From Candidatus Nanopelagicales bacterium (GTDB lineage: Bacteria > Actinomycetota > Actinomycetes > S36-B12 > UBA10799), in assembly GCA_037045455.1 (NCBI GenBank), contig JBAOIN010000006.1:128116-192115 (forward strand): a stretch of DNA of 64,000 bases, written 5' to 3'. The notes below the pieces were generated by a model. It was not told the origin of the DNA and did not search any database. It saw only the letters and a list, made by a program, of their open reading frames with translations. Below, one piece after another: positions 9,328 through 31,403 of this stretch; the first letter of the stretch is position 1; each line of letters opens with the position of its first letter. Both the position numbers and the translations under genes were made by a program.

Positions 9328-9328
9328 G

Positions 9329-12747: not shown

Positions 12748-14844
12748 TCAGTACCGCGCCTGCAACTCACCGGTGACCTTCGCCCCCCAAGCAGCATTCG
12801 TCCACTGCGGGAAGTAGGGCGGCGAGGCGAACTGCAGCCGGGAGTCATAGGAGTAGTCCTTGTCGAACCCGGTGCCCCCGGACGTCCCGACCGCACCACG
12901 CCACTTCTGGGCGATCGATCCTCGGACAGACAGCTTGCCGAGGTCGGTGCCCTTTTCGTAGTTCTGGACCCAGAAACTATGGGCCAGGGTCTGGATCGAG
13001 GCGTACACCCAACGGGTCCCGGAACTGCTGGTCACCCCTGGGAAGGTGATGTCGCTGTAACTACTTCCGTACGTCCGAGTGGTCGTCCAGGTGCACGTGA
13101 TGGTGTTGTTGTTGGCGGGGCTGCCGCCGCTGGGCGTCGAGGCGATGTCGGTGCACTTGGTCCGGAGGCTGGTCGGGGACTTCACGGTCGTTGTGGGAGT
13201 CGAGGGCGTGCTTTCCGAGGAACTGCGTAACACCGGGTGGTAGATCACCACGCTGTTCGACGCGACCAGGCCCACCATGTCCGGACCGACCGCGGTGCTG
13301 CCCTTGGTGCTGCTGCTGATGGACAGGTCGTTGGTGACGATGACGTTGTTCTGGGCTGCGATGGTGACGCGGCCCTTGACCACACCCTCGATGTAGACAT
13401 TGCCCAGGCCGCAGTCGAACGTGCTCGGGTGCACATCATTCACCGCGGTCTCGGCTGACGTTGCCGGGTTCGGGCTCATACTCGAGTCCAGCTGCCACGC
13501 GTTGCTGACACGCTTCCACTTCTTCGTCGTCGTGTATGTTGCCGTGTCCGGGTTGTAGTAACTGATGTCGCTGACCAGGCCGCTGCTGCCTGTGGGGATC
13601 ACGTCGTTGCTCGTGCTGCCCGACGTCGTGCCGTTGACGATCTGCCCAGGGACACACCGCGCGGAGCCACCGGTCGCGGCCTGCACGTAGATCACCAAGT
13701 CGGTGGGCACCGGTACGGTCTGTTTGCCGGCGGGGTATTTCTGTCCGGTCGCCGGCACGAACTGGGCAGCGTTCCCGCAGTCAAGGCCCGCTGGTGAGTC
13801 GGGACCCTTCAGAGACTTGCCCGCACTGGTCGTGTTCCAGACCGTCATCGTGCCGTCGCTATTGAAGCGGATCCGGGTGTCGCCGTAGTAGTTGCAGCCG
13901 GGGAAGGTCGAGAACTTGTCGGAGTTGTCCGGCAAGTACAGCGGTAGCGCCGGCCGGGCCCCGGCGGTTCCGACATAGGGGCGGGCTGACGTGCCGGTCG
14001 TACGCCAGCATTTGGCGTCACCGGCCGCCTTACCCACGCCACTGGAGTCGGGAGTTCCGGCCGCCTCCGTACACCTCGAGTCGGCAACTTCGTAGCCCTT
14101 GAGGAACCGCGGCCGAGAACCGCCGGACGCCACCATCAGCGGGCTGTCGTTGAAGTGCACGTCGCCATCGAGGACGTCATTGCTGCCGAACTGGATCTCC
14201 TGACACGTACCGGAACTCGAGCGCGCACTGGTCTGCCACCAGTACTTCGCCAGGGTCGCGCCGCTCTTGCCGCACTCGTCGTACTTCGCCCCACCGGCCG
14301 CTTGGGACTTGCTGCCGCCTGGCGGGTAGGCCACGAGGTTCTGGGGGTCGGCGTCCTCGAAGTCGGTGTAGTACAGGAAGTCGGTCGAGCCGCCGCGCGC
14401 CACTCGCACCTGGATCGTGCGCGAGACGCCCTTCACCTTGCCGGTCGACTCGACCCAGACCGAGCCGTCCTTCCAGAAGTTGGCGGTGTTGACGTCGTAG
14501 TGGAACTTCCCCGCTTGCGGGTTACCCCCTTGCACATCGACCCATCCCGCAGCGGTACTCGAGTTCCACCCGCAGGAGTTGGTCTCGGCCTTGGGCCCCT
14601 TCAATGCGACGTTCGAACAGTCGACAGTCTGGGCGTAGGCATCGTTGCGATTCAGTTTGGCGAGGTAATCGTCCACGCCCGCCTGGGCTGCCGCTAGAGC
14701 CGCTTGCCAGTGCTCGTCGCGGCTGGTCCGTGGCGCCACGTTGGCTGCGTAACTCAGCGCGGCTGCGACCACCACAGTGAGAATTGAGATCATCCCGAGC
14801 ACCATGATCATGGCGACTCCACGCTCGTCTGTTCGCATTCGCAT
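12748..14844 (-). CDS. Large PilX-N-domain pilus protein (putative tip or minor-pilin-associated protein)
   Basis: 698 aa. The N-terminus MRMRTDERGVAMIMVLGMISILTVVVAAALSYA has the PilX N-terminal pattern. It is followed by a long Cys-, Gly-, Ser- and Thr-rich secreted region with beta-helix-like stretches (GNVYIEGVVKGRVTIAAQNNVIVTNDL). Confidence 0.7.
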   Translation of the reverse strand: MRMRTDERGVAMIMVLGMISILTVVVAAALSYAANVAPRTSRDEHWQAALAAAQAGVDDYLAKLNRNDAYAQTVDCSNVALKGPKAETNSCGWNSSTAAGWVDVQGGNPQAGKFHYDVNTANFWKDGSVWVESTGKVKGVSRTIQVRVARGGSTDFLYYTDFEDADPQNLVAYPPGGSKSQAAGGAKYDECGKSGATLAKYWWQTSARSSSGTCQEIQFGSNDVLDGDVHFNDSPLMVASGGSRPRFLKGYEVADSRCTEAAGTPDSSGVGKAAGDAKCWRTTGTSARPYVGTAGARPALPLYLPDNSDKFSTFPGCNYYGDTRIRFNSDGTMTVWNTTSAGKSLKGPDSPAGLDCGNAAQFVPATGQKYPAGKQTVPVPTDLVIYVQAATGGSARCVPGQIVNGTTSGSTSNDVIPTGSSGLVSDISYYNPDTATYTTTKKWKRVSNAWQLDSSMSPNPATSAETAVNDVHPSTFDCGLGNVYIEGVVKGRVTIAAQNNVIVTNDLSISSSTKGSTAVGPDMVGLVASNSVVIYHPVLRSSSESTPSTPTTTVKSPTSLRTKCTDIASTPSGGSPANNNTITCTWTTTRTYGSSYSDITFPGVTSSSGTRWVYASIQTLAHSFWVQNYEKGTDLGKLSVRGSIAQKWRGAVGTSGGTGFDKDYSYDSRLQFASPPYFPQWTNAAWGAKVTGELQARY

Positions 14845-14858
14845 CTGTGGTCACCTCC

Positions 14859-15575
14859 TCAGGGAATCGCCGTGGGTGTCGGCTGGATCAGGGAATCCGC
14901 GTTGGGCAGGGTCACGCGGGCCGTGACCGTGGCGCTGCCCGCCGTGGTGCTGGGCCGCACGCGAAGCACCAGATCGATGCTGTCCACTGCCTTCAACTTG
15001 GACACGTCGGACTGCAAGGGTGGCGTGATCAGGGCGCCCGAGCGGTCGTAGTAGGTGAACAGGGCGCCTGCTTGAACGTTGCGGGCCAGCACGCGGGTGC
15101 GGACAGGGCAGGAGGGACCGGGTGTGCAGTACTGGTAGTTGAAGTCGCTGACGCTGTGGACGTTGGGCTTCTGCACGGTTTCCACGAGTTGGCCGTTGGT
15201 CAGGGTATACGTGACGCGCCTGGGTCCGCGGTCGGTGTTGCCGGAGGCGGGCAGAATGCCGTCGTTGTCGACGTTGGCGTAGAAGCGCACCATCGTGTCA
15301 GTGCCCTCGATGAACGCGGCGACATCGCATCCTGAGCATGTGGCCTGAATCTGCGACGGCAGGATCGCGGTGCGCAGGATCCGGGTCATTGCCTCGACCG
15401 CGACATTGGTCTGGCTCAGGCCGTCCAGGCGATGGGCATTCTGCGCCATCGTCCGCTGTGCCGTGATCAGACCTTGCGAGACGATGGCCAGAACCGTGCC
15501 GAGGATGCTCACCACGACGAGCATCTCGATGAGGGTGACGCCGTGGTCACCGCGAATTCTGCGCAGAATGCTCAC
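14859..15575 (-). CDS. Minor pilin (prepilin-type N-terminal cleavage/methylation domain, PilW-like)
   Basis: 238 aa with the class III signal RRIRGDHG|VTLIEMLVVVSILGTVLAIV. Confidence 0.85.
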   Translation of the reverse strand: MSILRRIRGDHGVTLIEMLVVVSILGTVLAIVSQGLITAQRTMAQNAHRLDGLSQTNVAVEAMTRILRTAILPSQIQATCSGCDVAAFIEGTDTMVRFYANVDNDGILPASGNTDRGPRRVTYTLTNGQLVETVQKPNVHSVSDFNYQYCTPGPSCPVRTRVLARNVQAGALFTYYDRSGALITPPLQSDVSKLKAVDSIDLVLRVRPSTTAGSATVTARVTLPNADSLIQPTPTAIP

Positions 15576-16951
15576 GGTTCGGTCCCCTCAGGGACGTAGA
15601 CGATGCCCGCGGCCGAGGTGCTCAGACCCGCGGTCAGCACGTCGGTGCCGGCCTTGAGTGTCCACTGCCCGTACGGCAAAGCGGTGCGAACCACGCCATT
15701 CGCATCCGTCTTTCCCAGCTGGTAGATCTGCGCCGGCGAGCACCCGGTCGCGTCCGCGATGACAGCCGTGACACTCACGTCAGCCCTGGGGTCGCCCTCG
15801 CTGTCGAGGAACGTTGCCTGGAGCGGTTTGAGTGGCACCTTCGCCGTGACTGTTCCTCCCGGACTCGCAATCACGGCCTTGGGCCGGGAACCACCCGTGG
15901 CGGCTGGGTCGTTGAGCGTGCACTTGCCCGCCCAGACCGAGTAGCCATCGGTGAACGGCCACAGCCCGGTCACCGAGGACGTCCCGCCGGGCAGTTCCTT
16001 GCGACCCATGTTGGGCAGACCCGGGTTGAACAAGACGATGGGCTGAACAGGCGTGGGTGCGGTGAAACTGGGACCGGGGTCGTCGGTGACCTCGTAGTTG
16101 AACTGGATAGTCGCCGCCCGGTCGTAACTGAACGGCACAACCTGGATCGTGCCCTGGCTGACCGTGGCCGGTTTGGATACCGATTGCTGTCCGTCAAAAC
16201 TCACATACCCCGGCTCGTCGAGGGTGACCGTGTAGTTGCCCGTCGTATCCATGGCGAATACCGCGCAGCCGTCGGCGCCCGTGACCCGGGTCTGGCTTCC
16301 CCCCGGCCCGGTGATGTCGACCGGAACACTGTCGACACCCGTTCCAGCAGCGCCCTGCACCTTGGCCGCCACGAACCCCTTGATGGCGGCCAGGGTGCCC
16401 TTCGGCGGCGTCAGGATGGTGTTCGACTCCACGTCGCGAGTCACCGCGTGCTGCTTCCAGCTCACTTTGACGTTGACTGCCAGCGATGGGTAGGTAACGG
16501 CCGAACCACCGTCGCAAGGACTTGCTCCCGACCCTGCAGGCAGCCATTCCACAGTCCGCACCACGGTGTACTTGGTGCCGTCGAGGTTCAGTGGCTGGCC
16601 GGCCGTCTGCCCGGGCAACGGTGTGCCGTTCGTGACCTGACTGGTGGCGGCCACCGTCAAGGGCGCGCTCTTGGAGGAGCCGAACTGATTGCGCACGGTC
16701 TCGATCTCGCGGGCGGCAAGGTTTGCGGCCTGCACGCGGGACCGGTCGGTCTGGGTCACCGCCAGCGACAGTTGCAGTCCGTAGGCAAACGCGGAGGAGA
16801 CCAGGCCGAGGATCGTGAGTGCGGCCATGAGCTCGATGATGGTGAACCCCGCGTCGGACTGCCGACGGTCCCGCCGTCGGGCGCGCAGCAGCCGAATGAT
16901 CACGTCTAGTGAATCGGCGTAATGGGACTGTGCCTTAATCCTTATGGGCAT
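15572..16951 (-). CDS. Minor pilin (PilV-like) with CarboxypepD_reg-like beta-sandwich repeats
   Basis: The prepilin signal is RRQSDAG|FTIIELMAALTILGLV. Two carboxypeptidase-regulatory-like segments are present (VPVDITGPGGSQTRVTGADGCAVFAMDTTGNYTVTL; VSVTAVIADATGC...KTDANGVVRTALPYGQWTLK). The start is uncertain. The ATG at 16951 abuts a hairpin, and the GTG at 16903 is an alternative. Confidence 0.8.
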   Translation of the reverse strand: MPIRIKAQSHYADSLDVIIRLLRARRRDRRQSDAGFTIIELMAALTILGLVSSAFAYGLQLSLAVTQTDRSRVQAANLAAREIETVRNQFGSSKSAPLTVAATSQVTNGTPLPGQTAGQPLNLDGTKYTVVRTVEWLPAGSGASPCDGGSAVTYPSLAVNVKVSWKQHAVTRDVESNTILTPPKGTLAAIKGFVAAKVQGAAGTGVDSVPVDITGPGGSQTRVTGADGCAVFAMDTTGNYTVTLDEPGYVSFDGQQSVSKPATVSQGTIQVVPFSYDRAATIQFNYEVTDDPGPSFTAPTPVQPIVLFNPGLPNMGRKELPGGTSSVTGLWPFTDGYSVWAGKCTLNDPAATGGSRPKAVIASPGGTVTAKVPLKPLQATFLDSEGDPRADVSVTAVIADATGCSPAQIYQLGKTDANGVVRTALPYGQWTLKAGTDVLTAGLSTSAAGIVYVPEGTEP

Positions 16952-16998: not shown

Positions 16999-17417
16999 TC
17001 ACGCGGTCGCCACGCAAGCGCCCGTCTTGAGGCCGGCGGGGCTGGAGTAGCTCCACACGGCTCCACCGTTGGCGGTCGCCTCGAGGCAGTAGTCCGTCGA
17101 TCCGTTGGCGGTGGCTGTCGATCAGCGGGGTGGTGCCGCCGCTCGTAGTTGCTGCCTGGAGAGTACTTGAAGCCGACAGCCTGCAGATCAGCGATCGCGT
17201 TGGTGTACGTACCGGTGTCGGTCAGAACCGTCTCTTCGGCCGTGGCCGCGTTGCGGAGGTCCGCCTTGACCGCAGATTCCCAGCCCTTCTTGCGCTGGTT
17301 GAGGAACACGGGAATGGCGATGGCTGCCAGGATCCCGATGATGATGATCACGACGAGGAGTTCGATGAGGGTGAAGCCCTCTTCCTCTTTCCTTGCCTGG
17401 ACGAGCCGCGTGAACAT
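16999..17417 (-). pseudogene. pilA: Major type IV pilin PilA, with two +1 frame disruptions as assembled
   Basis: The class III signal is MFTRLVQARKEEEG|FTLIELLVVIIIIGILAAIAIPVF. After ...GFKYSPGSNY the listed ORF becomes junk. Hand translation of the other frames restores SGGTTPLID, then TANGSTDYCLEATANGGAVWSYSSPAGLKTGACVATA*. This is a typical disulfide-bonded pilin C-terminus. The shifts lie near 17142-17145 and 17110-17114. The span is 419 nt (3n+2). Confidence 0.85.
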
Positions 17418-17584: not shown

Positions 17585-18250
17585 TCAGGTGCGCATCTCG
17601 TCGGTCAGGTGGTGCGTGAGGTTGTGGTAGTGCAACCACCAGTCCGGACGGTGGGCGGCAGGCCGGTGCTCGAGATGGGTTATCCCAGTGTGATGGGTCT
17701 CGATCGCGACCACACTCCACGGACCCTTCTCGAAGACGTACTCGAAGATCGCCTCGATCACGCCACCGTGCGCGACGGCCAGCACCCGGCGCTCGTCGGG
17801 CTCGGGTTCCTCGGCTCGGCCGCGGCGCACGGTAGGCACCAGTGTCTCCAGAAACCCGCCGACCCGGGAGCGGAACTGCAGCCAGGTCTCACCGGTTGCT
17901 GTCGTCGGCGTGTAGGGATCGAGCGTGCCCCATACCTCCGGGGTGAAGGGCTCGAACTCAAGGGCAGGAATCGGAGTCCCGTCGGCATGGCAAGTGCCGA
18001 CCTCGCGCAGGCCGTCGTGATACTGCGGCCTCATGCCGATTGCTTCGCCGATGATCTCCGCCGTCTGCCGTGTCCGGGCGACCGTGCTGGCCACGAAGTC
18101 GGTGATGTGCAAGTGGCTTGCGATCCACTTGCCTGCGCGTCGTGCCTGCTCCTGACCCAAATCTGTCAGCGGGTCGTCGCGGTGCTCAATGGTGAGGTCG
18201 GCAAGATTGACGTGACTCTGGCCATGGCGGACGAGATACAGGTGCACCAC
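17585..18250 (-). CDS. Histidine phosphatase family protein (phosphoglycerate-mutase-like)
   Basis: 221 aa with the LYLVRHGQSHVN catalytic motif and a later AVAHGGVI motif. Confidence 0.85.
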   Translation of the reverse strand: MVHLYLVRHGQSHVNLADLTIEHRDDPLTDLGQEQARRAGKWIASHLHITDFVASTVARTRQTAEIIGEAIGMRPQYHDGLREVGTCHADGTPIPALEFEPFTPEVWGTLDPYTPTTATGETWLQFRSRVGGFLETLVPTVRRGRAEEPEPDERRVLAVAHGGVIEAIFEYVFEKGPWSVVAIETHHTGITHLEHRPAAHRPDWWLHYHNLTHHLTDEMRT

Positions 18251-18335: not shown

Positions 18336-19444
18336 TTGGGTATGGACCTTCCCCGCGCTCTGACTCTCCTGGAATCCCCGGCCGGGGATCCGCTGGAGCT
18401 CGTCCGGGCGGCTGAGGCGGTCAAAGCCTGGGCTGATGCTCGGCAGTTGGAAGCCATTCATGACCTGTCCGAGCAGGAGCCGGCCGGGTTCGACCCCTAC
18501 GGGCAACTCGTTGATCCGGTCCCGGCCGAGGTGGCCTGCGCGCTGACCTGGACGGCATGGACCGCCAGCCGCCGGGTCGACCTGGCCCACGAACTGCACG
18601 ACGAGCTTGCCCGACGTGCTCGACGCGCTGCGGCTTGGTGAGATCGACCTGGCCAAGGCGGTTGAGATCGCCCACGGCACCTGCGAACTCCCGCCCGCCG
18701 ACCGGGTGCGAACTGGCTGATCGTGCGATCGGGTACGCCGCCAGACCCACACCCGCGCCCAGCTGAAAGCGTGGCTGGCCGGACGCATCGCCAAACTCAA
18801 CCCGGACGCCGCCGAGAAACGCCGCAAGAAAGCCAAGAAACAGCGCCGGGTCTGGGTGCAACCCGAATCCGACGGCATGGCCACCCTGGGCGCCTACCTC
18901 ACCGCCGAAGAAGCCCAAGCCTGCCTACTGTCGCTGAAGCACGGCGTCGCCAATCATGAAGGCAGCGTGGACGCCGCCCGCGCCGACCTGCTCGTCCAGA
19001 CGACTGACCGGCCTGGCACCCGCCGACCCGATCCCTGTGCAGGTGATCATCACCCCGGGCGGACCCGGAACTGGCCGGCCACGGCCCCCTAAGCCCGCTG
19101 CACGCCGCTCAGCTGTGCGACGGGGCACCCCGCATCAACCTCGAGGCGCCCGCCCCGACGCTGTCCTACGCCCCCACCGTCGGCACTCGTGCGACTACGT
19201 CAAAGCCCGCGACCGGCACTGCCGCTTCCACGGCTGCCGACGCGCCGCCATGCACTGCGACCTCGACCACACCATCGAATACCCTCACGGCCCGACCTGC
19301 GCCTGCAACCTCCACTGTTTGTGCCGGTATCACCACCGGCTCAAAACCCACACCGCCTGGCAAGTGCACCGCAACCCCGACGGATCACTGACCTGGACCA
19401 GCCCCCGCGGCCACCAATACAGAAGCGAACTCGAAGACCCGTAG
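18336..19444 (+). pseudogene. DUF222 / HNH endonuclease (13E12-repeat-type), with multiple frame disruptions
   Basis: The DUF222-like N-terminus is in ORF 18336-18641. Recognisable pieces occur in changing frames: LPDVLDALRLGEIDLAKAVEIA; QLKAWLAGRIAKLNPDAAEKRRKKAKKQRRVWVQPESDGMATLGAYLTAEEAQA; ELAGHGPLSPLHAAQL. The HNH C-terminus is in ORF 18956-19444 (ARDRHCRFHGCRRAAMHCDLDHTIEYPHGPTCACNLHCLCRYHHRLKTH). There are at least 5 frame changes, and not all run in the same direction. Confidence 0.8.
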
Positions 19445-19447
19445 TCG

Positions 19448-20119
19448 CTACAGGTACTTTGTGATGACCATTGCCGCGAGAAGTGCCAACCAGATCACGG
19501 TGCCCGCGATATCCAACCCGTAGGCCAGTGGCTTGCGCGTGATCCTTTGTAGGCGTGCGCCCAGATGCCCGTCGGCCAGATTGACGCGAGTCAAGGAAGT
19601 GAACACCAGGGTCGTTGTGACGGTGATGAGCAGGCACCACGGGCAGAGTGCCCCGATCACGAAGTAGGCCTGGTAGAACAGCCAGTACGCGAATAGGAAC
19701 CCGATCGAGTAGAACGTCTGCGCGATCAGCATGAACCACCGCGGGAAGCGCACTCCCCCGAGCGCAGCCACGGCGACCGTGATCACGATCGGCTCCGTGA
19801 TCAGCCCGAGGAAAGCGTTGGGAAATCCCAGTAAGTTGGCCTGCCAGGTGGAACCGACGGTCGTGCACGAGATCTTCGAGCTGATGTCGCAGGAAAGGAT
19901 GACGTCGGGATTCTCAGCGATCTTGATGGCGTCGATGGACAGCACGAGCGATGCGACCAGGCCCAGCAATGAGGACACCAGCATCTCGATGTAGGCGCCA
20001 GTGTGCCGACGGCCGGTCTCCGGCACCTCGTCGAACTCGTCGAGCAGCTCGTCTGCGGTCTGCGAAGTCACGTGACCGAGTATCCCTGGATGACGGGAGG
20101 GACGCGCAAGCGGGCGCAT
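19448..20119 (-). CDS. Vitamin K epoxide reductase (VKOR) family protein, a DsbB-type disulfide oxidoreductase
   Basis: 223 aa and multi-TM. It has the loop cysteines ILSCDISSKISCTTV and the active-site CPWC (GALCPWCLLITV). Confidence 0.85.
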   Translation of the reverse strand: MRPLARPSRHPGILGHVTSQTADELLDEFDEVPETGRRHTGAYIEMLVSSLLGLVASLVLSIDAIKIAENPDVILSCDISSKISCTTVGSTWQANLLGFPNAFLGLITEPIVITVAVAALGGVRFPRWFMLIAQTFYSIGFLFAYWLFYQAYFVIGALCPWCLLITVTTTLVFTSLTRVNLADGHLGARLQRITRKPLAYGLDIAGTVIWLALLAAMVITKYL

Positions 20120-20137
20120 CGACGAGTCACGTGGCCC

Positions 20138-21409
20138 TCAGGCAGGCACCAAGCCGGCCGGGCCCGGCGCAGGTGGCACGGGATCGGCGGAGTCGGGCCG
20201 CGACGTCCGGTCGGTCCGATGGACAGCACGCCACGAGATACTGGTCAACAGGATCAGAGTGAGGCCGTACAGCACAAACCAGACCTCCTGGAACGCGAAG
20301 GTGGACTCGATGGGCTGCCAGCCTCGGGTCGGGTAGTACAGGCAAGCCAGTAGCCCAATTCCGACCGCGACGCGACGCGGCGAACGGCCGTTGCCGACCA
20401 CGGCCCCAAGGGCCGGGAGCATCCACACCGCGTGGTGACTCCACGAGACCGGGGACACCATGACACTGGTCAGCCCGACAACCGCAGCGGTCCCGATCGG
20501 ATCGTTGGCCCGCCATACGACGGCAGCAGCAAACAAGCCGGCCGCACACAGCAGGAGTGCGAGGGGAACGTACACCCGCACCGGAATATCCCCATCGTGC
20601 AGGCGCGCGAGCAGGCCACCGAGGGACTGGTTGTACTCCAGGGCGGGCGACGCTGCGCGGGCTGTCGGATTGACGATGAGGCGCTGCGTCCAGAGGTAAG
20701 TCCAGGTCGACTCGGGCAGCCAAAGCGCGCCGACACACCAGGCAACCGCTGTGGTCGCACATGCGGTGAGTGCGGGTCGCCACTGCTTCGTGGTGAACCA
20801 GTGGACGATGAACAGCCCTGGTGTCAGCTTCACGGCCGTCATTAGGCCCACCAGGACACCTCGTGGTAGCCGCCCGGATCGCCCCATGACGTCCAGCAGG
20901 CAAGCTAGCGTCAGGATGGTGCCGATCTGTCCGAAGGGAAGCAGTTCGCTGATGGGCTCCGTGGGGATCACCACGATCAGCGCCATCACGATCACGAGCC
21001 ACCGTCGAGGCGATCGGATCAACACGGCATTGAAGCTGAGCGCAAGAATGGCCGCCAGGCTGACGAGGGAAGCGAGGGTCCACACCGGCATGAGCCATGC
21101 ATCCGGCAGCATCCCCACGGGGATCATCAAGACCGCGGCGAACGGCGGGTAGGAGAACGGGAGGAACCCTGTGAATGCCGTCTCAAACGTTCCCGCGTAG
21201 ACATCTGCATGAGCCAGCGCCCACCGTCCCCCCTGGGCATACACCCGCACATCCGTTGCTGGGATCTGGGACCAGAACTGTAGGTGCAGATACCACTGAC
21301 CGAGGACGGCCATCACAGCGGCGGTGACAAGCCCCCACCTTGCGAACCGGGAGCCTTGAACGCCAACAACGAGGCCGTGCTGGACAAGAGCCAGCCGTCC
21401 CCGGGTCAC
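20138..21409 (-). CDS. GT87 / DUF2029 polytopic membrane glycosyltransferase (polyprenol-phosphate-sugar dependent, GT-C fold)
   Basis: The GTG at 21409 overlaps the upstream stop (GTGA). The first-loop signature is ATDVRVYAQGGRWALAHADVYAG...FSYPPFAAVLM. Many TM helices follow. The N-terminal half of ORF 20138-22606 is out-of-frame overlap with the upstream gene. Confidence 0.8.
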   Translation of the reverse strand: MTRGRLALVQHGLVVGVQGSRFARWGLVTAAVMAVLGQWYLHLQFWSQIPATDVRVYAQGGRWALAHADVYAGTFETAFTGFLPFSYPPFAAVLMIPVGMLPDAWLMPVWTLASLVSLAAILALSFNAVLIRSPRRWLVIVMALIVVIPTEPISELLPFGQIGTILTLACLLDVMGRSGRLPRGVLVGLMTAVKLTPGLFIVHWFTTKQWRPALTACATTAVAWCVGALWLPESTWTYLWTQRLIVNPTARAASPALEYNQSLGGLLARLHDGDIPVRVYVPLALLLCAAGLFAAAVVWRANDPIGTAAVVGLTSVMVSPVSWSHHAVWMLPALGAVVGNGRSPRRVAVGIGLLACLYYPTRGWQPIESTFAFQEVWFVLYGLTLILLTSISWRAVHRTDRTSRPDSADPVPPAPGPAGLVPA

Positions 21410-22683
21410 GAGGGTTCCTCCTGGCCGAGGGGGACATCTCGCAGAAAGAACAGCCCGGCGACACTGGCCACACACGCTGCAGCAGAAAGCGCGAATGGTC
21501 CTCTGCCGGCAGCGCCCATGAGTACCAGCCAGGAGGCCAGCATGAGCCATGCGCCCGCAATGTTGCGGTGCAGTGCCCAGATGACTGCGGCTGGCAGCAG
21601 CACCACCACCGGCGAGATCAGGTAATAGGAGCCGAACCAGATGTCGGTCGCGACCCTCAGCAACACGATGATCACGGGCACCAGCAGGCATGCCGTCGCC
21701 CTGATCGCCGCGTGCCGGCGAAGCAGTGGGCGTGCCCACAATAGCGTCACCGCCGTGGCCACAGCGCCCACCAGACCCGCCTGCAGCAGGCGCAATGACC
21801 AGGGGAATGGAGAACCCGCTCCCACTAGCAGGCTCCAGGCACTGTCTGCGCGCACGGTCCAGTGGTAGCCGGCCATATGGAACGATCCTGAAACAACAAA
21901 GGGCAGCCACAGCATCGCCGACACGGCCACCGCTGCGCCGACCGCGCCTGCCACTCGCCGCAGGTCCGGCGCGAGCAGCAAGGCGACGACGCCGACGATG
22001 CCCCACGGCTCGAGCCCGGTTGCCAGTCCGATTGCCGCACCGGCGAGCACGGGCCGGCCGGCAGCACTGAGACCGCCCGCCAGCACCCACAGCAAGAGCA
22101 CCGGGATCTGCCACCAGTGCCCGGCCATCAGGTACTCCTCGTCGGCGCCGATCAGACCGAGAACGGCGACCGTCAGCCACGGGGCAGCAAGCACGAGGGT
22201 GCTGCTGTCGGGAAGGCGACGGATGAGTGACGCAGCCACGGAACCGCCTACGAGCAATGGGACCGAAGCCACGAGAGTCATGAGGACAGCGGCACCTGCT
22301 GCTCCAGGCAGCACTGCCAGCAGGCGATGGAGCAGGCCGTCGCCGATGATCTGTGCGGGCCCGGCTTGGTTGAACGGATCGGCGTACGCGCCCCCGAGAT
22401 CGCCGCGCAGTACCGACTCCCCGAGGCCGCTGAATTGAGCGATGTCCGGAATCCACCCATATAGCGCCTGTATCCGTGATCCGGCACCGGCAGTCAGGTC
22501 CCACAGCCGCCCCGCGGTAGCCACGGAGAAGGCCAGGGCGAGCGCGATCCACCCATGCCGTGCCAGAACGCTGACCCAATGCGGCCATGTGGCCGGGCGC
22601 AGCCACAGCCCCGCATCGAGCAACGCTGGCCGTGAGGCGGTCGCAACACCACCCATAGGAGGCGCATCGTCACCCATGCCCAC
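21406..22683 (-). CDS. Polytopic membrane protein, GT-C-like (possible second glycosyltransferase)
   Basis: 425 aa with about 10 or more hydrophobic helices. Its first loop is IPDIAQFSGLGESVLRGDLGGAYADPFNQAGPAQI. It starts 3 nt after the pilC stop. The family assignment is tentative. Confidence 0.55.
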   Translation of the reverse strand: MGMGDDAPPMGGVATASRPALLDAGLWLRPATWPHWVSVLARHGWIALALAFSVATAGRLWDLTAGAGSRIQALYGWIPDIAQFSGLGESVLRGDLGGAYADPFNQAGPAQIIGDGLLHRLLAVLPGAAGAAVLMTLVASVPLLVGGSVAASLIRRLPDSSTLVLAAPWLTVAVLGLIGADEEYLMAGHWWQIPVLLLWVLAGGLSAAGRPVLAGAAIGLATGLEPWGIVGVVALLLAPDLRRVAGAVGAAVAVSAMLWLPFVVSGSFHMAGYHWTVRADSAWSLLVGAGSPFPWSLRLLQAGLVGAVATAVTLLWARPLLRRHAAIRATACLLVPVIIVLLRVATDIWFGSYYLISPVVVLLPAAVIWALHRNIAGAWLMLASWLVLMGAAGRGPFALSAAACVASVAGLFFLRDVPLGQEEPS

Positions 22684-22686
22684 CCC

Positions 22687-23907
22687 TTACTCGATCAGGT
22701 CGAACACCTTGAAGATCGGCATGTAGAGGGCAATGATCATTGCGCCAACGATCGCACCCACCACAGCGATCATGATCGGTTCGATCAGCGATGTGAGGGC
22801 CTCGGTCGTGGCCTCCACCTCTGAGTCGTAGAAGTCCGAGATCTTGTGGAGCATGGCATCCAGGGACCCGGTGTCCTCGCCGACAGCCATCATCTGCACA
22901 ACCATCGGCGGGAAGACCGGGTGTTCGGCCAAGGGACCGGCCAACGACTCCCCCCGTCGTACGGAGTTCTCCACGTCGTCGATCGCGCGGGCAAGAACCA
23001 CGTTGCCGGTGGTGTCCGAGACGATGTCCAGCGACTGCAGGATGGGGACACCTGCGTGAATCATGGTGCCGAGGTTGCGGGAGAAGCGGGAGATCGCCAC
23101 CTTCTGGAAGAGCTTGCCGAAGATCGGAGCCTTCAACTTGAATGGATCCACGACGTTGCGCACCTTGGGATGGTTCTTGTAACGGCGCCACACGAAGAAG
23201 CCGATCACCGCCAGCAGCAGCAAGAACGGCAGCGCAGTCTTCAGCAGGTTGGAGAGTGCGACCAGAACCCGGGTGGGCAGCGGCAACTCACCGCCTAGGC
23301 CGGCGAACATGTCGGCGAAGACCGGGACGATAAAGACCAGCATCGCGGTCATGGACAGGATGGCGAACGAGAACACCACGACCGGGTACGTCATCGCGGA
23401 CTTGATCTTTGCGCGCAATTTGACTTCCGCCTCGAAGTTCTCCGCGAGTTGCAGCAGCACCTGATCCAGGAAACCGCCGGTCTCACCGGCCCGGACCATG
23501 TTGATCATGATGGGCGGGAACACACGCTCGTGCTGGGCAAAGGCCTGGGACAGCGAGGAACCCTGCTCTACTGCCAGGCGGACCTCGGAGTAGACCTCGG
23601 CCAGTTTCTCGTTGTCGGTCTGCTCGGCAAGGATGGACAGCGCTCGCAGCAGCGAAAGCCCGGAGTTGATCATGGTGGCGAACTGCCGTGCCGAGATGGC
23701 GATGTCCTTGAGTTTCACCCGGCCACCGAAGCCCGGGATGTGCAACTCCTTGTTCAGCCCGGCGTTGGCTTTGGCGATCGAGATGGGCGCGTAGCCCATG
23801 CCTTTCAGCTTGCTGGCCACGGCCGCTGGCGACTGCGCGTCAATCCGGCCCTTGAGGACCTTGCCCCCCCGGTCGCGGACTTGATAGTCGAACGTCTCCA
23901 GACTCAC
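22687..23907 (-). CDS. pilC: Type IV pilus platform protein PilC (GspF family)
   Basis: 406 aa with a duplicated T2SS-F domain (ISARQFATMINSGLSLLRAL...; ISRFSRNLGTMIHAGVPILQSL...). Confidence 0.95.
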   Translation of the reverse strand: MSLETFDYQVRDRGGKVLKGRIDAQSPAAVASKLKGMGYAPISIAKANAGLNKELHIPGFGGRVKLKDIAISARQFATMINSGLSLLRALSILAEQTDNEKLAEVYSEVRLAVEQGSSLSQAFAQHERVFPPIMINMVRAGETGGFLDQVLLQLAENFEAEVKLRAKIKSAMTYPVVVFSFAILSMTAMLVFIVPVFADMFAGLGGELPLPTRVLVALSNLLKTALPFLLLLAVIGFFVWRRYKNHPKVRNVVDPFKLKAPIFGKLFQKVAISRFSRNLGTMIHAGVPILQSLDIVSDTTGNVVLARAIDDVENSVRRGESLAGPLAEHPVFPPMVVQMMAVGEDTGSLDAMLHKISDFYDSEVEATTEALTSLIEPIMIAVVGAIVGAMIIALYMPIFKVFDLIE

Positions 23908-25031
23908 GCGATCCTCCCGGTCATCCGGTTGAAGTCCTCAACGTGGTGGCATTTCTCCGCGCCCTGCTCGTAGCTGATGCGACGCGACCGGACGAGTTCC
24001 GCCAAGTGCTGGTCGAGGGTCTGCATGCCGTACTGCGCGCCGGCCTGCAGGGATGAGTAGATCTGGTGGGTCTTGCCCTCGCGAATCAGGTTGCGGATGG
24101 CCGGGGTGGCGACCATGACCTCGACCGCAGCCACCCGGCCTTTGCCGTCCGCGGTCTTGCACAGCGTCTGGCAGACCACACCCTGCAGGGTGCCGGCGAG
24201 CTGCTGGCGGATCTGCTGCTGCTGATGCGGCGGGAAGACATCGATGATGCGGTCGACCGTTTGGGCGGCGTCCTGAGTGTGCAGGGTCGCGAACACCAGG
24301 TGGCCGGTCTCCGCGGCAGTCAGGGCGACCTGGATGGTCTCGAGGTCACGCATCTCCCCGACCAGGATGATGTCCGGGTCCTGCCGCAGGACGTGCTTGA
24401 GCGCCTCGGCGAAGGAGCGGGTGTCGGTGCCCACCTCCCGCTGGTTGACCAGGCAGTTGCGGTGCCGATGCAGGAATTCGATCGGGTCTTCCACGGTCAT
24501 GATGTGGTCGTGGCGGGTGGAGTTCGCGATGTCGATCAGCGACGCCAGCGTCGTGCTCTTGCCAGAGCCGGTGGGTCCGGTCACCAGCACGAACCCGCGC
24601 GGCAGCGCGGAGAACGACGAGACGATTGGGGGGATGCCCAGCGATTCCAGGCTCTTGATCTCAAACGGAATGACGCGGAACGCTGCGCCGACAGCTTCCC
24701 GCTGCTGGTACATATTCACGCGGAATCGGGCCCGGCCCGGCAGCGAGTACGAGAAGTCGAGCTCCAGCCGCTCTTCGAACATCTCCCGCTGCTGCTGGGT
24801 GATGATCGCGTAGAGGATGCGTTTGAGGGAGGCGCTGTCCAGAACGGGCGCGCCCGGCAACGGCCGCAGGCTGCCCGCGATCCGCACGGTAGGCGGCGCG
24901 CCGGCCGTGACGTGCAGGTCACTGGCACCCGCGGAAAGCATCAACTCCAGGCACCGAACCAGGCTGACATCGCTGGCCCGGACGGCCTGCTCGGTGCCGG
25001 GGCGAGCGGCTGCGGGTGTCTGCACGGACAT
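23904..25031 (-). CDS. pilT: Type IV pilus retraction ATPase PilT
   Basis: 375 aa with Walker A GPTGSGKSTT, VGEMRDLETIQVALTAAETGHLVFATLHT, and the AIRNLIREGK motif. Confidence 0.95.
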   Translation of the reverse strand: MSVQTPAAARPGTEQAVRASDVSLVRCLELMLSAGASDLHVTAGAPPTVRIAGSLRPLPGAPVLDSASLKRILYAIITQQQREMFEERLELDFSYSLPGRARFRVNMYQQREAVGAAFRVIPFEIKSLESLGIPPIVSSFSALPRGFVLVTGPTGSGKSTTLASLIDIANSTRHDHIMTVEDPIEFLHRHRNCLVNQREVGTDTRSFAEALKHVLRQDPDIILVGEMRDLETIQVALTAAETGHLVFATLHTQDAAQTVDRIIDVFPPHQQQQIRQQLAGTLQGVVCQTLCKTADGKGRVAAVEVMVATPAIRNLIREGKTHQIYSSLQAGAQYGMQTLDQHLAELVRSRRISYEQGAEKCHHVEDFNRMTGRIA

Positions 25032-25177: not shown

Positions 25178-26842
25178 TCAGACCACGACGCGCAGTACTT
25201 CGTCCAGGCTCGTGACCCCGGCCAGCACCTTGGCCAGCCCGTCCTGCTTGAGGGTCTGCATGCCTTCCTCCCGCCCGGCGGTCGCAATGGCCGCAGAGGG
25301 GGCCCGCTCCACGGCCAGCCGCTCGATCCGCTCGGTGATCGGCAGCACCTCATGCAGGGCGACCCGGCCTTTGTAGCCGGTCCGCGAACACACCGAGCAG
25401 CCGACCGGACGGTAGATCTTCGGGATCTCGTGACCGTCCTCGATCGGCAGGCCAGCTGCTCGCAAAGCCTCACGCGACGGCTGGTAGGTCTGCTTGCACT
25501 TAGGGCACAACCGTCGCGCGAGACGTTGGGCCAGGACGCAGTCCAGAGACGAGCCCACCAGGAACGGCTCAATGCCCATCTCGATCAACCGGGTCACGGC
25601 ACTCGGCGCATCGTTGGTGTGCAAGGTGGACAGCACCAGGTGTCCGGTGAGCGCGGACTCCACCGCGATCTGGGCGGTCTCGTGGTCGCGGATCTCACCG
25701 ATCAGCACGATGTCGGGGTCGGCACGCAGGATCGACCGCAGCGCCGCTGCGAACGTCAGACCAGCCTTGGCGTGGGTCTGGATCTGGTTCACCCCTGCCA
25801 AACGGTATTCGACCGGGTCCTCGACAGTGATGATGTTCACCTCGGGTCGGTTGAGGATGTTCACCGTCGCGTACAGCGTCGTGGACTTTCCCGAACCGGT
25901 CGGCCCAACGACCAGGATCATGCCGTAGGGCTTACCGAAACTCGCCGAGAAGCGGTCGTAGTTCACCTGCCGGAACCCGAGGTCGGCCAGGTCCAGCATC
26001 GCAGTGGAGTTGTCCAGGATCCGCATGACGATCTTTTCGCCCCACACCGTCGGCAACGTCGCCACCCGCAGATCGACCTTCTGGCCGTTGCTACTCACGC
26101 TCAGCCGACCGTCCTGCGGCACCCGGCGTTCGGCAATGTTCATGTCGGCCATGATCTTCAAACGGCTGATCACCCCGGACTGGATGGACTTCGGCGAGCG
26201 CATCACCTCGTGCAGCACGCCGTCGATCCGGAACCGCACGCGAACGTCGTGCTCAGTCGGCTCGAGATGGATGTCGGAAGCCCGGTCCTGGATGCCCTGG
26301 GTGATCAGCAGGTTCACGAACTTGACGATCGGGGCGTCCTCGACGACCTCCTTGATGCTGGACAAGTCGTCTTCGTCGGAATCCGGCTCTATCGCGGTCG
26401 TGAGCTCGTCGAGTTCGCCGTCCGCGCGGTAGTGCCGGTCCAGCGCTGCCTGCACGTCGGTGCGCGTCGCCACGACCGGGATGACCGTCATGCCACTGGC
26501 CGAACGAATGTCGTCGATGGCGAAGACGTTGGCCGGGTCGCTCATGGCAACCACCAGCCGGCCGTTCTCGAAGGCGATCGGGATGGCACTGTGGCGCCGG
26601 CACACCGCGCCGGGGACCTTGGTCAGGGCGGCCCCGTCCAAGGTCGCTTCGGCCAGGTCGACGAACCGCATGCCGATCTGGGTGGCCAGAGCCTGCACGA
26701 CCTGCGCCTCGGTGAGCATGCCGAGATCTATCAGCACCCGGCCCAGAGAATGCCCGATGTTGCGCTGTTCGAACAGGGCCTTCTCCAACTGATCGGACGT
26801 GATGAGGCCCTGGCCGATCAAGATCTCGCCCAGTTGCTTCAT
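25178..26842 (-). CDS. pilB: Type IV pilus assembly ATPase PilB (GspE family)
   Basis: 554 aa with an N-terminal GSPII_E_N domain (LGEILIGQGLITSDQLEKALFEQ), Walker A GPTGSGKSTT, and the tetracysteine motif CPKC...CSVC. Confidence 0.95.
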   Translation of the reverse strand: MKQLGEILIGQGLITSDQLEKALFEQRNIGHSLGRVLIDLGMLTEAQVVQALATQIGMRFVDLAEATLDGAALTKVPGAVCRRHSAIPIAFENGRLVVAMSDPANVFAIDDIRSASGMTVIPVVATRTDVQAALDRHYRADGELDELTTAIEPDSDEDDLSSIKEVVEDAPIVKFVNLLITQGIQDRASDIHLEPTEHDVRVRFRIDGVLHEVMRSPKSIQSGVISRLKIMADMNIAERRVPQDGRLSVSSNGQKVDLRVATLPTVWGEKIVMRILDNSTAMLDLADLGFRQVNYDRFSASFGKPYGMILVVGPTGSGKSTTLYATVNILNRPEVNIITVEDPVEYRLAGVNQIQTHAKAGLTFAAALRSILRADPDIVLIGEIRDHETAQIAVESALTGHLVLSTLHTNDAPSAVTRLIEMGIEPFLVGSSLDCVLAQRLARRLCPKCKQTYQPSREALRAAGLPIEDGHEIPKIYRPVGCSVCSRTGYKGRVALHEVLPITERIERLAVERAPSAAIATAGREEGMQTLKQDGLAKVLAGVTSLDEVLRVVV

Positions 26843-30950: not shown

Positions 30951-31403
30951 GTTCCATCCATCAGCATCCCGGGTGGTTCGCCCGTGGCGCGTTCGGTATC
31001 CAGCGCTTGCTGCAGCATAATGACCGCCGCCGCTTGATCGACGATGCGGCGTCCCTTGCGAGCACTGACCCCGCTTTCGTGCATCAGCGTGTGGGCGATC
31101 GTCGTGGTGTGCCGTTCGTCCACGAGCCGCAATGAAACATTCGGGAAATGTGTGCCGATTTCGCGTCGCCACCGAACGAACGGTTGCCGCCGCAGCACGC
31201 TCTTGCCCGTCGAGCGAGACCGGCAGCCCGATGATGATCTCCAAGGGTTCCCATGCGTCGACCAACTGCTGCAGTTGCGGCAGCCACTCCCGGCGGGCGT
31301 CCAGGGTGCACTCCGGCACGGCCAGTGTCCCGGTGGCATCACTGCGAGCCACCCCTATACGCACTGATCCGATATCCAGGGCCAGCCGTACGCCGTTGCG
31401 CAT
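30947..31403 (-). pseudogene. ruvX: Holliday-junction-resolvase-like pre-16S rRNA nuclease RuvX/YqgF, with one +1 frame disruption as assembled
   Basis: The N-terminus is MRNGVRLALDIGSVRIGVARSD...IIIGLPVSLDGQERAAAATVRS. The C-terminus is in the next frame (IGTHFPNVSLRLVDERHTTTIAHTLMHESGVSARKGRRIVDQAAAVIMLQQALD). The junction is at the TTT run 31159-31161. The span is 457 nt (3n+1). Confidence 0.85.

What the first reader, a model, noticed from the sequence alone, without database searches (positions are those of the whole stretch)
19448..22683. Two GT-C-type membrane glycosyltransferase-like genes and a VKOR gene are packed directly behind pilC: a candidate pilin maturation module
The first polytopic membrane protein starts 3 nt after the pilC stop. 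The GT87/DUF2029 gene overlaps it by 4 nt (GTGA). The VKOR gene follows after 18 nt. All are on the pil strand, so co-transcription with pilB-pilT-pilC is likely.

GT87/DUF2029 enzymes use polyprenol-phosphate sugars on the outer face of the membrane. VKOR replaces DsbB as the disulfide-generating enzyme in actinobacteria. In Pseudomonas aeruginosa, some pilins are glycosylated by a GT-C enzyme (TfpW) with arabinofuranose of the mycobacterial type.

The pilin (two C-terminal Cys, Ser/Thr-rich C-terminus) and the Cys-rich 698-aa protein are plausible substrates. A dedicated glycosylation and disulfide module wired into an actinobacterial T4P operon would, to my knowledge, be new.
Basis: inference. 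Interest (0 to 1): 0.65.

Follow-up and report, generated by a model that had tools for sequence, protein, structure and literature searches.

The report
Pilus-linked membrane glycosyltransferase pair, plus VKOR
Directly behind the type IV pilus motor genes of this actinobacterium sit two membrane sugar-transferase genes and a disulfide-forming enzyme gene; the first belongs to an unannotated family that keeps turning up next to pilin genes, so it probably glycosylates pilins, while the link to the disulfide enzyme is specific to this species.

Summary
On the minus strand, pilB-pilT-pilC is followed by a 425-aa polytopic gene ("A", 3-nt gap), a GT87 gene (GTGA overlap) and a VKOR gene (18-nt gap). 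All three are intact and are 99-100% identical, without indels, in two independent metagenome contigs.

A has no Pfam or NCBIfam hit. It is nevertheless a GT-C-fold protein. Its AF2 model has pLDDT 91, its best structural matches are PIG-M/Gpi14, ALG3, PIG-U, PimE and ALG6, and hhalign gives 95.7% probability against its GT87 partners.

The main new result is comparative. Seven of ten independent lineages of family A have a prepilin or platform gene as the immediate neighbour. In the closest relatives the A-GT87 pair sits inverted between pilin genes rather than behind pilC. The GT87 partner occurs only in some lineages. One of those also carries a polyprenyl-phosphate-sugar-synthase-like GT2.

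VKOR has all its catalytic cysteines. It is absent from every related pilus cluster I could read outside this species.

Best reading: A, with GT87, is a pilin-directed GT-C glycosylation system analogous to Pseudomonas TfpW. VKOR is a lineage-specific neighbour. Nothing here is biochemically tested.

The parts
25178..26842 (-). pilB extension ATPase, with an N-terminal MshEN / c-di-GMP-binding domain
   Evidence: T2SSE 2e-139, TIGR02538 7e-198, MshEN 4e-23.
23904..25031 (-). pilT retraction ATPase
   Evidence: TIGR01420, 492.6 bits, above the cut-off of 319.
22687..23907 (-). pilC platform protein
   Evidence: T2SSF x2 at 5e-68; PilC models at 3.5e-128.
21406..22683 (-). Gene A: a 425-aa polytopic GT-C-fold protein and a member of an unannotated family linked to type IV filament genes. 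It is the predicted pilin-directed glycosyltransferase.
   Evidence: No Pfam or NCBIfam hit. The exhaustive search found 376 representative relatives. Conserved residues include D80, Q106, H189, E225, R298, R343, D347 and Y353/Y354. AF2 pLDDT is 91. Foldseek's top hits are GT-C enzymes. hhalign against the GT87 partners gives 95.7%. Contexts.
20138..21409 (-). GT87-family GT-C glycosyltransferase (423 aa), translationally coupled to A through a GTGA overlap
   Evidence: PF09594 4e-37. Matches PimE 9dm5 at E 1e-24, with D53 of the 'atDvrvY' stretch aligned to the Asp of PimE's 'lvDlhvY' stretch. It is not the PimE equivalog: 126.9 bits against a cut-off of 413.
19448..20119 (-). VKOR-family quinone-dependent thiol oxidoreductase (223 aa)
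   Evidence: PF07884 7e-33. The loop Cys pair (SCDISSKISC) and the CPWC motif are present and align to VKOR structures. It is found next to GT87 only in this species.
18336..19444 (+). Decayed DUF222/HNH endonuclease gene, convergent with VKOR. It marks a rearrangement breakpoint.
   Evidence: all but two of the indels against L001/L013 lie in it (the exceptions are at the two ends of the L013 alignment). It is intact in L013 at 366 aa. The L005 homologue hits DUF222 and HNH.
17585..18250 (-). 221-aa gene with a histidine-phosphatase-like N-terminus, conserved next to the pilin gene in relatives
   Evidence: translation; 72-76% identical in L005 and L016. The histidine-phosphatase label rests on the 'RHG' N-terminal motif only. 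No family search was run.
16999..17417 (-). Major type IV pilin gene. It has two +1 frameshifts as assembled, near 17144 and 17113. The corrected product has 2 Cys and a Ser/Thr-rich globular part. It is the candidate acceptor.
15572..16951 (-). Minor pilin (459 aa)
   Evidence: N_methyl 7.6e-6.
14859..15575 (-). Minor pilin (238 aa)
   Evidence: Prepilin motif GVTLIEMLVV.
12748..14844 (-). 698-aa protein with a GspK-like N-terminus, 12 Cys
   Evidence: (weak GspK hit, 8.9e-4).
11869..12636 (-). Prepilin peptidase (pilD)-like gene
   Evidence: translation. It is 69% identical in L005. No family search was run on it.
9329..11768 (-). pilM, pilN and pilO-like genes
   Evidence: The names come from position and from similarity to the L005 cluster. 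They were not family-tested.

Best explanation
Genes A and GT87 encode two GT-C-fold integral membrane glycosyltransferases. They probably use polyprenyl-phosphate-linked sugar on the outer face of the membrane, most likely mannose or another hexose. Their probable targets are type IV pilins and perhaps the large Cys-rich minor pilins. The likeliest division of labour is that A, the pilin-linked family, recognises the membrane-anchored prepilin or pilin and transfers sugar to Ser/Thr. GT87, a facultative partner, would extend the glycan or act with A as a heteromer.

In this species the pair has come to lie directly behind pilC and is almost certainly transcribed with pilB-pilT-pilC. VKOR is a functional disulfide-generating quinone reductase that happens to be the next gene here. 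It may oxidise the Dsb/MdbA-type partner that forms the pilin D-region disulfide, but it is not a conserved member of the module.

Shown: gene order, family and fold assignments, conserved residues, and recurrent synteny. Inferred: the donor, the acceptor, the order of action, and co-transcription.
For: Fold and family of A:
- AF2 gives pLDDT 91 and pTM 0.89.
- The Foldseek hits with probability 0.94-1.0 are all GT-C proteins: Gpi14/PIG-M 9wno, ALG3 9s6r, PIG-U 8imx_U, PimE 9dm5/9dm7 and ALG6 6snh, with TM-scores of 0.45-0.53.
- hhalign of family A against the GT87 partners gives 95.7% probability and E 8e-9.
- Seven of 41 relatives, and the L005 orthologue, give sub-threshold GT87 hits.
- A nearly invariant Asp (D80) lies in the first loop after TM1, next to juxtamembrane helices. 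That is where GT-C catalytic Asp residues sit.

GT87: PF09594 at 4e-37 and PimE at 1e-24, with the loop-1 Asp aligned.

The A-GT87 pair, with overlapping or abutting genes, recurs in L001-L007, L013-L016 and L020.

Immediate neighbours of A in ten independent lineages:
- Window: pilC.
- L005, L014, L015, L016 and L002: pilin genes flank the pair.
- L008 (42% identity): follows a tadA-like ATPase and two T2SSF genes, with TadE-like genes downstream.
- L012 (37%): follows a 384-aa prepilin.
- L017 (30%): 15 nt after the third of three tandem prepilin genes.
- L021 (34%): precedes a prepilin of at least 1687 aa.
- L022 (37%): divergent from a prepilin gene.
- No adjacency in L019, L020 and L006/L007.

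Donor: in L020 the order is GT87, A-like, then a GT2 whose best matches are polyprenyl- or dolichyl-phosphate sugar synthases such as AglJ, PpgS and ArnC. A GT2 also lies near A in L019.

Acceptors: every short pilin beside a family-A gene has exactly two C-terminal Cys, and Ser+Thr makes up 21-31% of its globular part. The 326-aa mature L012 pilin has two Cys and 17%.

Precedent: TfpW, a GT-C enzyme encoded next to pilA, O-glycosylates Pseudomonas group IV pilins (bioRxiv 10.1101/2020.04.19.049825).
Against: - There is no biochemical or mass-spectrometry evidence.
- The sample is ten lineages, taken from the top of the hit list, out of 376 representative relatives. More distant members may have other contexts.
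- Two GT87-paired lineages (L006/L007 and L020) show no pilus gene on their short contigs, so the pair may have a broader substrate range.
- PIG-U, a non-catalytic GT-C-like protein, is among the best structural matches, so catalysis by A is not proven.
- Foldseek E-values are weak (8e-3 to 0.5), and the profile search of PDB sequences found nothing.
- The window also encodes a GT4 (57262-58371). From its position I suspect it is pimA, though only Pfam GT4/GT1 domains were matched. The organism may therefore make mannolipids that also need GT-C enzymes.
- As assembled, the only major pilin gene in the window is frameshifted.
Confidence: 0.55

Rival explanations
1. A and GT87 build a cell-envelope glycoconjugate, such as a lipomannan-like lipoglycan or a wall polysaccharide, as characterised GT87 enzymes (PimE, Rv2181) do. 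Their position in the pilus cluster would then reflect either no functional link or only an indirect one, for example local wall remodelling that lets the pilus pass.
For: - All characterised GT87 enzymes act on lipoglycans. The best solved match is PimE.
- A-GT87 pairs occur without visible pilus genes in L006/L007 and L020.
- L012 and L019 have GT2 and polysaccharide-type genes nearby.
- The window carries a GT4 gene that I suspect from its position to be pimA.
Against: - Seven of ten independent family-A lineages have a prepilin or platform gene as the immediate neighbour. These include an organism with 44% GC and a Tad locus.
- The adjacency survives rearrangement and strand inversion between the window and L005/L016.
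- The GT87 gene scores far below the PimE equivalog cut-off.
Confidence: 0.2
2. A, GT87 and VKOR form a dedicated three-part pilin maturation module combining glycosylation and disulfide formation. VKOR would be specialised for pilus proteins.
For: - The spacing is tight and all genes are on the same strand.
- The VKOR catalytic cysteines are intact.
- The arrangement is identical in three assemblies of this species.
- The pilin has the two-Cys D-region, and the 698-aa protein has 12 Cys.
- VKOR supports pilus assembly through MdbA in Actinomyces oris (PMC5478893).
- A role of MdbA-like enzymes in type IV pilin folding was proposed for CPR bacteria, where VKOR genes often lie next to them (PMC6744442).
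Against: - VKOR is absent from all related A-GT87 pilus clusters read here: L005, L014 and L015 (about 20 kb each), L016 and L002. It is also absent from the more distant family-A contexts.
- No DsbA/MdbA-like partner gene was seen beside it.
- It borders a decayed HNH/DUF222 gene that is a rearrangement breakpoint. Its position may therefore be a by-product of rearrangement.
- Whether it is the genome's only VKOR is unknown.
Confidence: 0.15
3. A is a non-catalytic GT-C-fold protein, like PIG-U in GPI transamidase. It would bind the membrane-embedded N-terminal helix of pilins and present them to a partner enzyme or to the assembly platform.
For: - PIG-U chains are the third and fourth best structural matches.
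- Five of the pilin-adjacent family-A lineages have no GT87 partner.
- Family A follows platform genes in two contexts (window, L008).
Against: The nearly invariant polar residues D80, Q106, H189, E225, R298, R343 and D347 form a pattern typical of an active site. GT2 lipid-sugar-synthase-like genes lie beside A in L020, and one lies near A in L019.
Confidence: 0.1

Closest known systems
TfpW of Pseudomonas aeruginosa group IV strains (a GT-C pilin O-arabinofuranosyltransferase encoded next to pilA)
   Same: Both are polytopic GT-C-type enzymes encoded in the pilin neighbourhood. Both are predicted to use a polyprenyl-phosphate sugar outside the membrane to O-glycosylate Ser/Thr of type IV pilins (10.1101/2020.04.19.049825). 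The relatives of A in L005, L016, L017, L012 and L022 are likewise immediately adjacent to pilin genes.
   Different: - TfpW is 646 aa and has a large periplasmic TPR domain and a DDX motif.
- A is about 400-425 aa and helical membrane protein throughout. It has no soluble domain and a single conserved loop-1 Asp.
- A pairs in some lineages with a second GT-C (GT87).
- A occurs in a monoderm actinobacterial T4P cluster.
- No D-Araf synthesis genes were seen.
- Sequence relatedness to TfpW was not tested, because no TfpW sequence was available.
GT87 mannosyltransferases (PimE; PDB 9dm5)
   Same: The second gene is a clear GT87 member. A is a distant relative with the same GT-C fold.
   Different: Neither gene is the PimE equivalog: the GT87 gene scores 126.9 bits against a cut-off of 413, and A has no hit. 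Known GT87 enzymes modify lipoglycans, not proteins, and none is reported in a pilus cluster. A search for 'GT87' plus 'pilin' returned two unrelated papers, and 'DUF2029' plus 'type IV' returned none.
VKOR-MdbA disulfide pathway of Actinomyces oris and Corynebacterium
   Same: A VKOR-family enzyme with a loop Cys pair and a CXXC motif. In A. oris, VKOR reoxidises MdbA, which is needed for pilus assembly (PMC5478893).
   Different: In A. oris the pili are sortase-assembled and VKOR is a general housekeeping enzyme that is not encoded in a pilus operon. Here VKOR lies in a T4P cluster, but only in this species.
PglL/TfpO (PilO) O-oligosaccharyltransferases of Neisseria and Pseudomonas
   Same: Dedicated pilin O-glycosylation by a polytopic membrane enzyme encoded near pilin genes.
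   Different: From my own knowledge, these belong to the Wzy_C / O-antigen-ligase-like family and transfer preassembled undecaprenyl-pyrophosphate glycans. A has a GT-C fold of the PimE/ALG3/PIG-M type, and enzymes of that type use monophosphate-linked single sugars.

Membership tests
GT87 (Pfam PF09594), gene at 20138-21409 | Score above Pfam's gathering threshold across the whole domain | tested here: met
   128.7 bits against a cut-off of 25, covering profile positions 1-237 of 237.
GT87 (Pfam PF09594), gene at 20138-21409 | Asp in the first extracytoplasmic loop, aligned with the corresponding Asp of PimE | tested here: met
   query D53 in 'patDvrvY' aligns with the Asp of PimE's 'dlvDlhvY' stretch. 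That this Asp is the catalytic base is my own recollection of PimE, not something tested here.
PimE equivalog (NCBIfam NF009915) | Score above the equivalog cut-off | tested here: not met
   126.9 bits against a cut-off of 413. The gene is a GT87 paralogue, not PimE.
GT87 (Pfam PF09594), gene A at 21406-22683 | Score above Pfam's gathering threshold | tested here: not met
   no hit. The L005 orthologue scores 22.5 bits, below the cut-off of 25. Seven of 41 relatives give weak hits. hhalign to the GT87 partners gives 95.7%. A is a distant relative, not a member by the curated criterion.
GT-C fold superfamily, gene A | A polytopic GT-C membrane core with juxtamembrane helices in the first outer loop | tested here: met
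   model pLDDT 91; all high-probability matches are GT-C proteins, with TM-scores of 0.45-0.53.
GT-C fold superfamily, gene A | Conserved acidic residue in the first extracytoplasmic loop | tested here: inconclusive
   D80 is at least 90% conserved and lies just after TM1. Its structural equivalence to the catalytic Asp of PimE was not verified, because no model coordinates were accessible.
GT-C fold superfamily, gene A | Glycosyl transfer from a polyprenyl-phosphate sugar | not testable with these tools
   Only indirect support: GT2 lipid-sugar-synthase-like genes lie beside A-like genes in L020, and one lies near A in L019.
VKOR (Pfam PF07884) | Score above the threshold, plus the CXXC active site and a loop Cys pair | tested here: met
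   114.1 bits against a cut-off of 27.5. SCDISSKISC and CPWC are present and aligned to VKOR structures.
TfpW-like pilin glycosyltransferases | Gene immediately adjacent to the major pilin gene | tested here: inconclusive
   Not met in the window, where A is adjacent to pilC and about 4 kb from the pilin gene. Met for the relatives in L005, L016, L002, L012, L017 and L022.
TfpW-like pilin glycosyltransferases | Large C-terminal periplasmic TPR domain | tested here: not met
   A consists of membrane helices up to residue 414. No TPR family hit.
TfpW-like pilin glycosyltransferases | Sequence homology to TfpW | not tested
Type IVa pilus system (monoderm type) | PilB, PilT, PilC, a prepilin peptidase, PilM/N/O and prepilins with the N-terminal methylation motif, in one cluster | tested here: met
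   PilD and PilMNO were identified by translation and by similarity to L005 only.

The most novel reading that the evidence does not exclude
Family A is the signature enzyme of a previously unrecognised pilin O-glycosylation system in type IV filaments of Actinobacteria and other bacteria that so far lack one. It would act on T4a pili, Tad pili and giant prepilin adhesins alike. A would initiate glycosylation on pilins still anchored in the membrane, and GT87 would extend the glycan. In this lineage the system would be wired into the pilB-pilT-pilC transcript together with VKOR, so that glycosylation and disulfide formation are co-expressed with assembly.
Probability: 0.3. Interest if true: 0.7.

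Novelty: new variant of a known kind. Interest (0 to 1): 0.55.

Why it matters
As far as I could find, pilin glycosylation is known mainly from Gram-negative pathogens, where it affects phage resistance, immune evasion and pilus function. No dedicated pilin-modifying enzyme has been described for the type IV pili of Actinobacteria or other monoderm-type bacteria.

An unannotated GT-C family that tracks pilin genes across deep divergence gives a concrete, testable candidate. It would extend GT87-like enzymes from lipoglycan synthesis to protein modification. It would also name a family of several hundred "hypothetical" membrane proteins.

For genome annotation, the result also shows that the VKOR adjacency should not be over-read.

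Tried and rejected
- Word-indexed homology searches with A and with the family alignment found only 5 and 7 proteins. The exhaustive representative search was needed.
With narrow alignments, the genome scan found one locus and the metagenome scan found four. A genome-wide synteny statistic was therefore not possible.
- The profile search of PDB sequences with family A found nothing.
- I first read the two frameshifts in the pilin gene, together with the decayed HNH gene, as pseudogenisation of the pilus system. I withdrew that reading because alaS (at least two frameshifts) and rel (one) are also split. Assembly indels are likely, and the pilin's status is undecided.
- L013, a strain 98.4% identical at DNA level, diverges from the window just beyond the HNH gene, into luciferase-like and WS/DGAT genes. 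I could not tell a real rearrangement from a chimera induced by the DUF222/HNH repeat. L005's synteny supports the window's order.
- I considered PimE orthology for the GT87 gene and rejected it.
- The promoter and terminator scan gave nothing usable.
- Literature searches for GT87 or DUF2029 together with pilins found nothing relevant.

Full report
**1. The observation**

All genes below are on the minus strand.

| Gene | Coordinates | Junction with the previous gene |
|---|---|---|
| pilB | 25178-26842 | |
| pilT | 23904-25031 | |
| pilC | 22687-23907 | |
| A (425 aa, polytopic) | 21406-22683 | GTG 3 nt after the pilC stop; ATG 9 nt after it |
| GT87 (423 aa) | 20138-21409 | GTG overlaps A's TGA (GTGA) |
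| VKOR (223 aa) | 19448-20119 | ATG 18 nt after the GT87 stop |

Pfam and NCBIfam confirm PilB, PilT, PilC, GT87 (4e-37) and VKOR (7e-33). Gene A has no hit in either library.

The three genes show coding-type GC3 bias. They are 99-100% identical at protein level, with no indel, in two independent metagenome contigs of the same species, L001 and L013.

**2. The rest of the cluster**

A decayed DUF222/HNH gene on the plus strand (18336-19444) converges on VKOR. After it, on the minus strand, come:
- a histidine-phosphatase-like gene;
- the only major pilin gene in the window;
- three minor or large pilin-like genes, including the 698-aa protein with 12 Cys;
- pilD, pilM, pilN, pilO, a Ser/Thr-rich gene, and then aroC-aroK-aroB.

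Upstream lie a DUF4388 gene and alaS-ruvX-mltG. The pilus cluster therefore sits in a conserved actinobacterial housekeeping region.

Proteins at least 90% identical to A are labelled "hypothetical protein, Candidatus Nanopelagicales bacterium" in NCBI MAGs.

**3. What gene A is**

The exhaustive search found 376 representative relatives at E ≤ 1e-3 and 217 at E ≤ 1e-10. They are about 400 aa long. The alignment shows invariant or nearly invariant polar residues: D80, Q106, H189, E225, R298, R343, D347 and Y353/Y354.

- Seven of 41 relatives, and the L005 orthologue, give sub-threshold GT87 hits.
- Profile-profile comparison with the GT87 partner genes gives 95.7% probability and E 8e-9 over 180 columns.
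- The AF2 model is confident, with pLDDT 91 and pTM 0.89. It is an all-helical membrane protein with short juxtamembrane helices after TM1.
- Its high-probability structural neighbours are exclusively GT-C proteins: Gpi14/PIG-M, ALG3, PIG-U, PimE, ALG6 and the Emb proteins. TM-scores are 0.45-0.53 for all but the Emb chains, which score lower.

A is therefore a GT-C-fold protein distantly related to GT87. It lies outside every curated family.

**4. The GT87 gene and VKOR**

The GT87 gene matches the solved PimE structure at E 1e-24, with its loop-1 Asp aligned to the corresponding Asp of PimE. It scores far below the PimE equivalog cut-off, so it is a paralogue of unknown specificity.

VKOR has both the loop Cys pair and the CXXC motif.

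**5. Comparative genomics**

A and GT87 form a conserved pair, with overlapping or abutting genes, in L001-L007, L013-L016 and L020.

In the nearest relatives the whole pilus cluster is colinear with the window, but the A-GT87 pair lies inverted between pilin genes rather than behind pilC. These relatives are L005 (= L014 = L015), labelled an uncultured Micrococcales MAG with pilB 91% identical, together with L016 and L002. No VKOR is present in them.

| Representative (identity to A) | Locus | Immediate context |
|---|---|---|
| P0006 (42%) | L008 | follows a tadA-like ATPase and two T2SSF genes; TadE-like genes downstream |
| P0007 (37%) | L012 | follows a 384-aa prepilin |
| P0008 (30%) | L017 (44% GC) | 15 nt after the third of three tandem prepilin genes |
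| P0009 (32%) | L019 (same contig as L017) | near a GT2 and next to a methyltransferase; about 7 kb from pilus genes |
| P0010 (35%) | L020 | between a GT87 gene and a polyprenyl-phosphate-sugar-synthase-like GT2 |
| P0011 (34%) | L021 | precedes a prepilin of at least 1687 aa with a carbohydrate-binding module |
| P0012 (37%) | L022 | divergent from a prepilin gene |
| P0061 (30%) | L006/L007 | paired with GT87; no pilus gene on a 10-kb contig |

Counting the window and the L005-type group as one lineage each, seven of ten lineages have a type IV filament gene as the immediate neighbour. Prepilin and platform genes make up well under 1% of a genome (a general estimate from my own knowledge), so this is far beyond chance. 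The sample is small, however, and it is drawn from the relatives closest to A.

**6. Candidate substrates**

As assembled, the window's pilin gene has two +1 frameshifts, near 17144 and 17113. The corrected product is a 138-aa prepilin. It closely resembles the pilins of L005, L016 and L002, has the two-Cys D-region, and has 23% Ser+Thr in its globular part.

Every short pilin next to a family-A gene has two C-terminal Cys and 21-31% Ser+Thr. The 326-aa mature L012 pilin has two Cys and 17%.

The window also has frameshifts in alaS and rel. I therefore treat the pilin frameshifts as probable assembly errors, not as proof of a pseudogene.

**7. Mechanism**

Shown: two GT-C genes that are translationally coupled to each other and tightly packed behind pilC, and a family-level association of A with type IV filament genes.

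Inferred: A transfers a sugar from a polyprenyl-phosphate donor to Ser/Thr of membrane-anchored pilins. GT87 extends the glycan or partners with A. The pair is co-transcribed with pilBTC in this species.

GT-C enzymes of the PimE/ALG3/PIG-M type use monophosphate-linked single sugars. That statement is established knowledge rather than a result here. It is supported here only by the neighbouring GT2 genes.

The closest functional precedent is TfpW, a GT-C enzyme encoded beside pilA in Pseudomonas group IV strains. A differs from TfpW in size, in lacking the TPR domain, and in its GT87 partner.

**8. VKOR**

VKOR looks catalytically competent and is probably co-transcribed with the pair here. 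It is missing from every related cluster I could read outside this species. It also borders a decayed HNH/DUF222 gene where a strain 98.4% identical at DNA level (L013) diverges.

In Actinomyces oris VKOR reoxidises the general thiol-disulfide oxidoreductase MdbA (PMC5478893). A role of MdbA-like enzymes in type IV pilin folding has been suggested for CPR bacteria, where VKOR genes are often adjacent to them (PMC6744442). A dedicated role here is possible but unsupported.

**9. Novelty and verdict**

Within the searchable library I found no report linking GT87, DUF2029 or any GT-C enzyme to actinobacterial type IV pili.

The finding is best classed as a new variant of a known kind: pilin-associated GT-C glycosyltransferases. 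The glycosyltransferase half is strengthened by synteny. The VKOR half and the exact gene order are lineage-specific.

| Claim | My confidence |
|---|---|
| A has a GT-C fold | about 0.9 |
| Family A is functionally linked to type IV filaments | about 0.8 |
| A, with or without GT87, glycosylates pilins | about 0.55 |
| VKOR is a dedicated part of the module | about 0.15 |

Noticed in passing
window 16999-17417 (-): As assembled, the only major pilin gene in the window has two +1 frameshifts 31 nt apart, near 17144 and 17113. The corrected reading gives a normal 138-aa prepilin.
   Followed up: yes
window 29853-34074 (-) and 44176-46465 (-): Housekeeping genes are split by frameshifts. alaS is broken at about 32665-32768 and again near its 3' end, so that the alaS C-terminus, ruvX and mltG run together in one 971-aa ORF. 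rel/spoT is split at about 45707-45831. This points to indel errors in the assembly, or to genome decay.
   Followed up: partly
window 18336-19444 (+); L013 8609-9709: The DUF222/HNH endonuclease gene convergent with VKOR is heavily decayed in the window: about 10 indels and many substitutions against L001 and L013, where it is intact at 366 aa. A homologous HNH gene lies near pilC in L005.
   Followed up: partly
L013 9774-12580 compared with the window below 18272: A strain 98.4% identical at DNA level diverges from the window just beyond the HNH gene. It continues into a luciferase-like oxidoreductase and a WS/DGAT gene instead of the histidine-phosphatase-like gene, the pilin and the minor pilins. 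This is either a real rearrangement or a repeat-induced assembly chimera.
   Followed up: partly
window 25178-26842 (-) and 26839-27723 (-): PilB carries an N-terminal MshEN-type c-di-GMP-binding domain (NF053729 7.5e-18, MshEN 4e-23). It is preceded by an overlapping DUF4388 gene that is conserved in L005 and L013. This suggests c-di-GMP control of this actinobacterial pilus.
   Followed up: no
L021 1684-6744 (+): A giant protein of at least 1687 aa has a prepilin N-terminus and a CBM_4_9 carbohydrate-binding module. It is encoded directly after a family-A gene.
   Followed up: partly
L017 10001-11209 and L019 10001-11224 (same 311-kb contig, 44% GC): Two family-A paralogues lie about 15 kb apart in one genome. 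They flank a region with prepilin, TadE-like and T2SSE genes, and a separate ATPase plus two-T2SSF-gene locus lies beyond one of them. A RecA gene with two inteins lies nearby.
   Followed up: no
L005 8740-13035: The relative carries three paralogous major-pilin-like genes around the A-GT87 pair, whereas the window has one.
   Followed up: partly
window 8611-9345 (-): A 244-aa Ser/Thr/Pro-rich protein is encoded between pilO and aroC. It is conserved at 36% identity in L005 and its function is unknown. It is another possible glycosylation substrate.
   Followed up: no
window 57262-58371 (-): A GT4/GT1-domain glycosyltransferase gene lies a few genes from yebC and ruvAB. From its position I suspect it is pimA. 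If so, the organism makes phosphatidylinositol mannosides.
   Followed up: no
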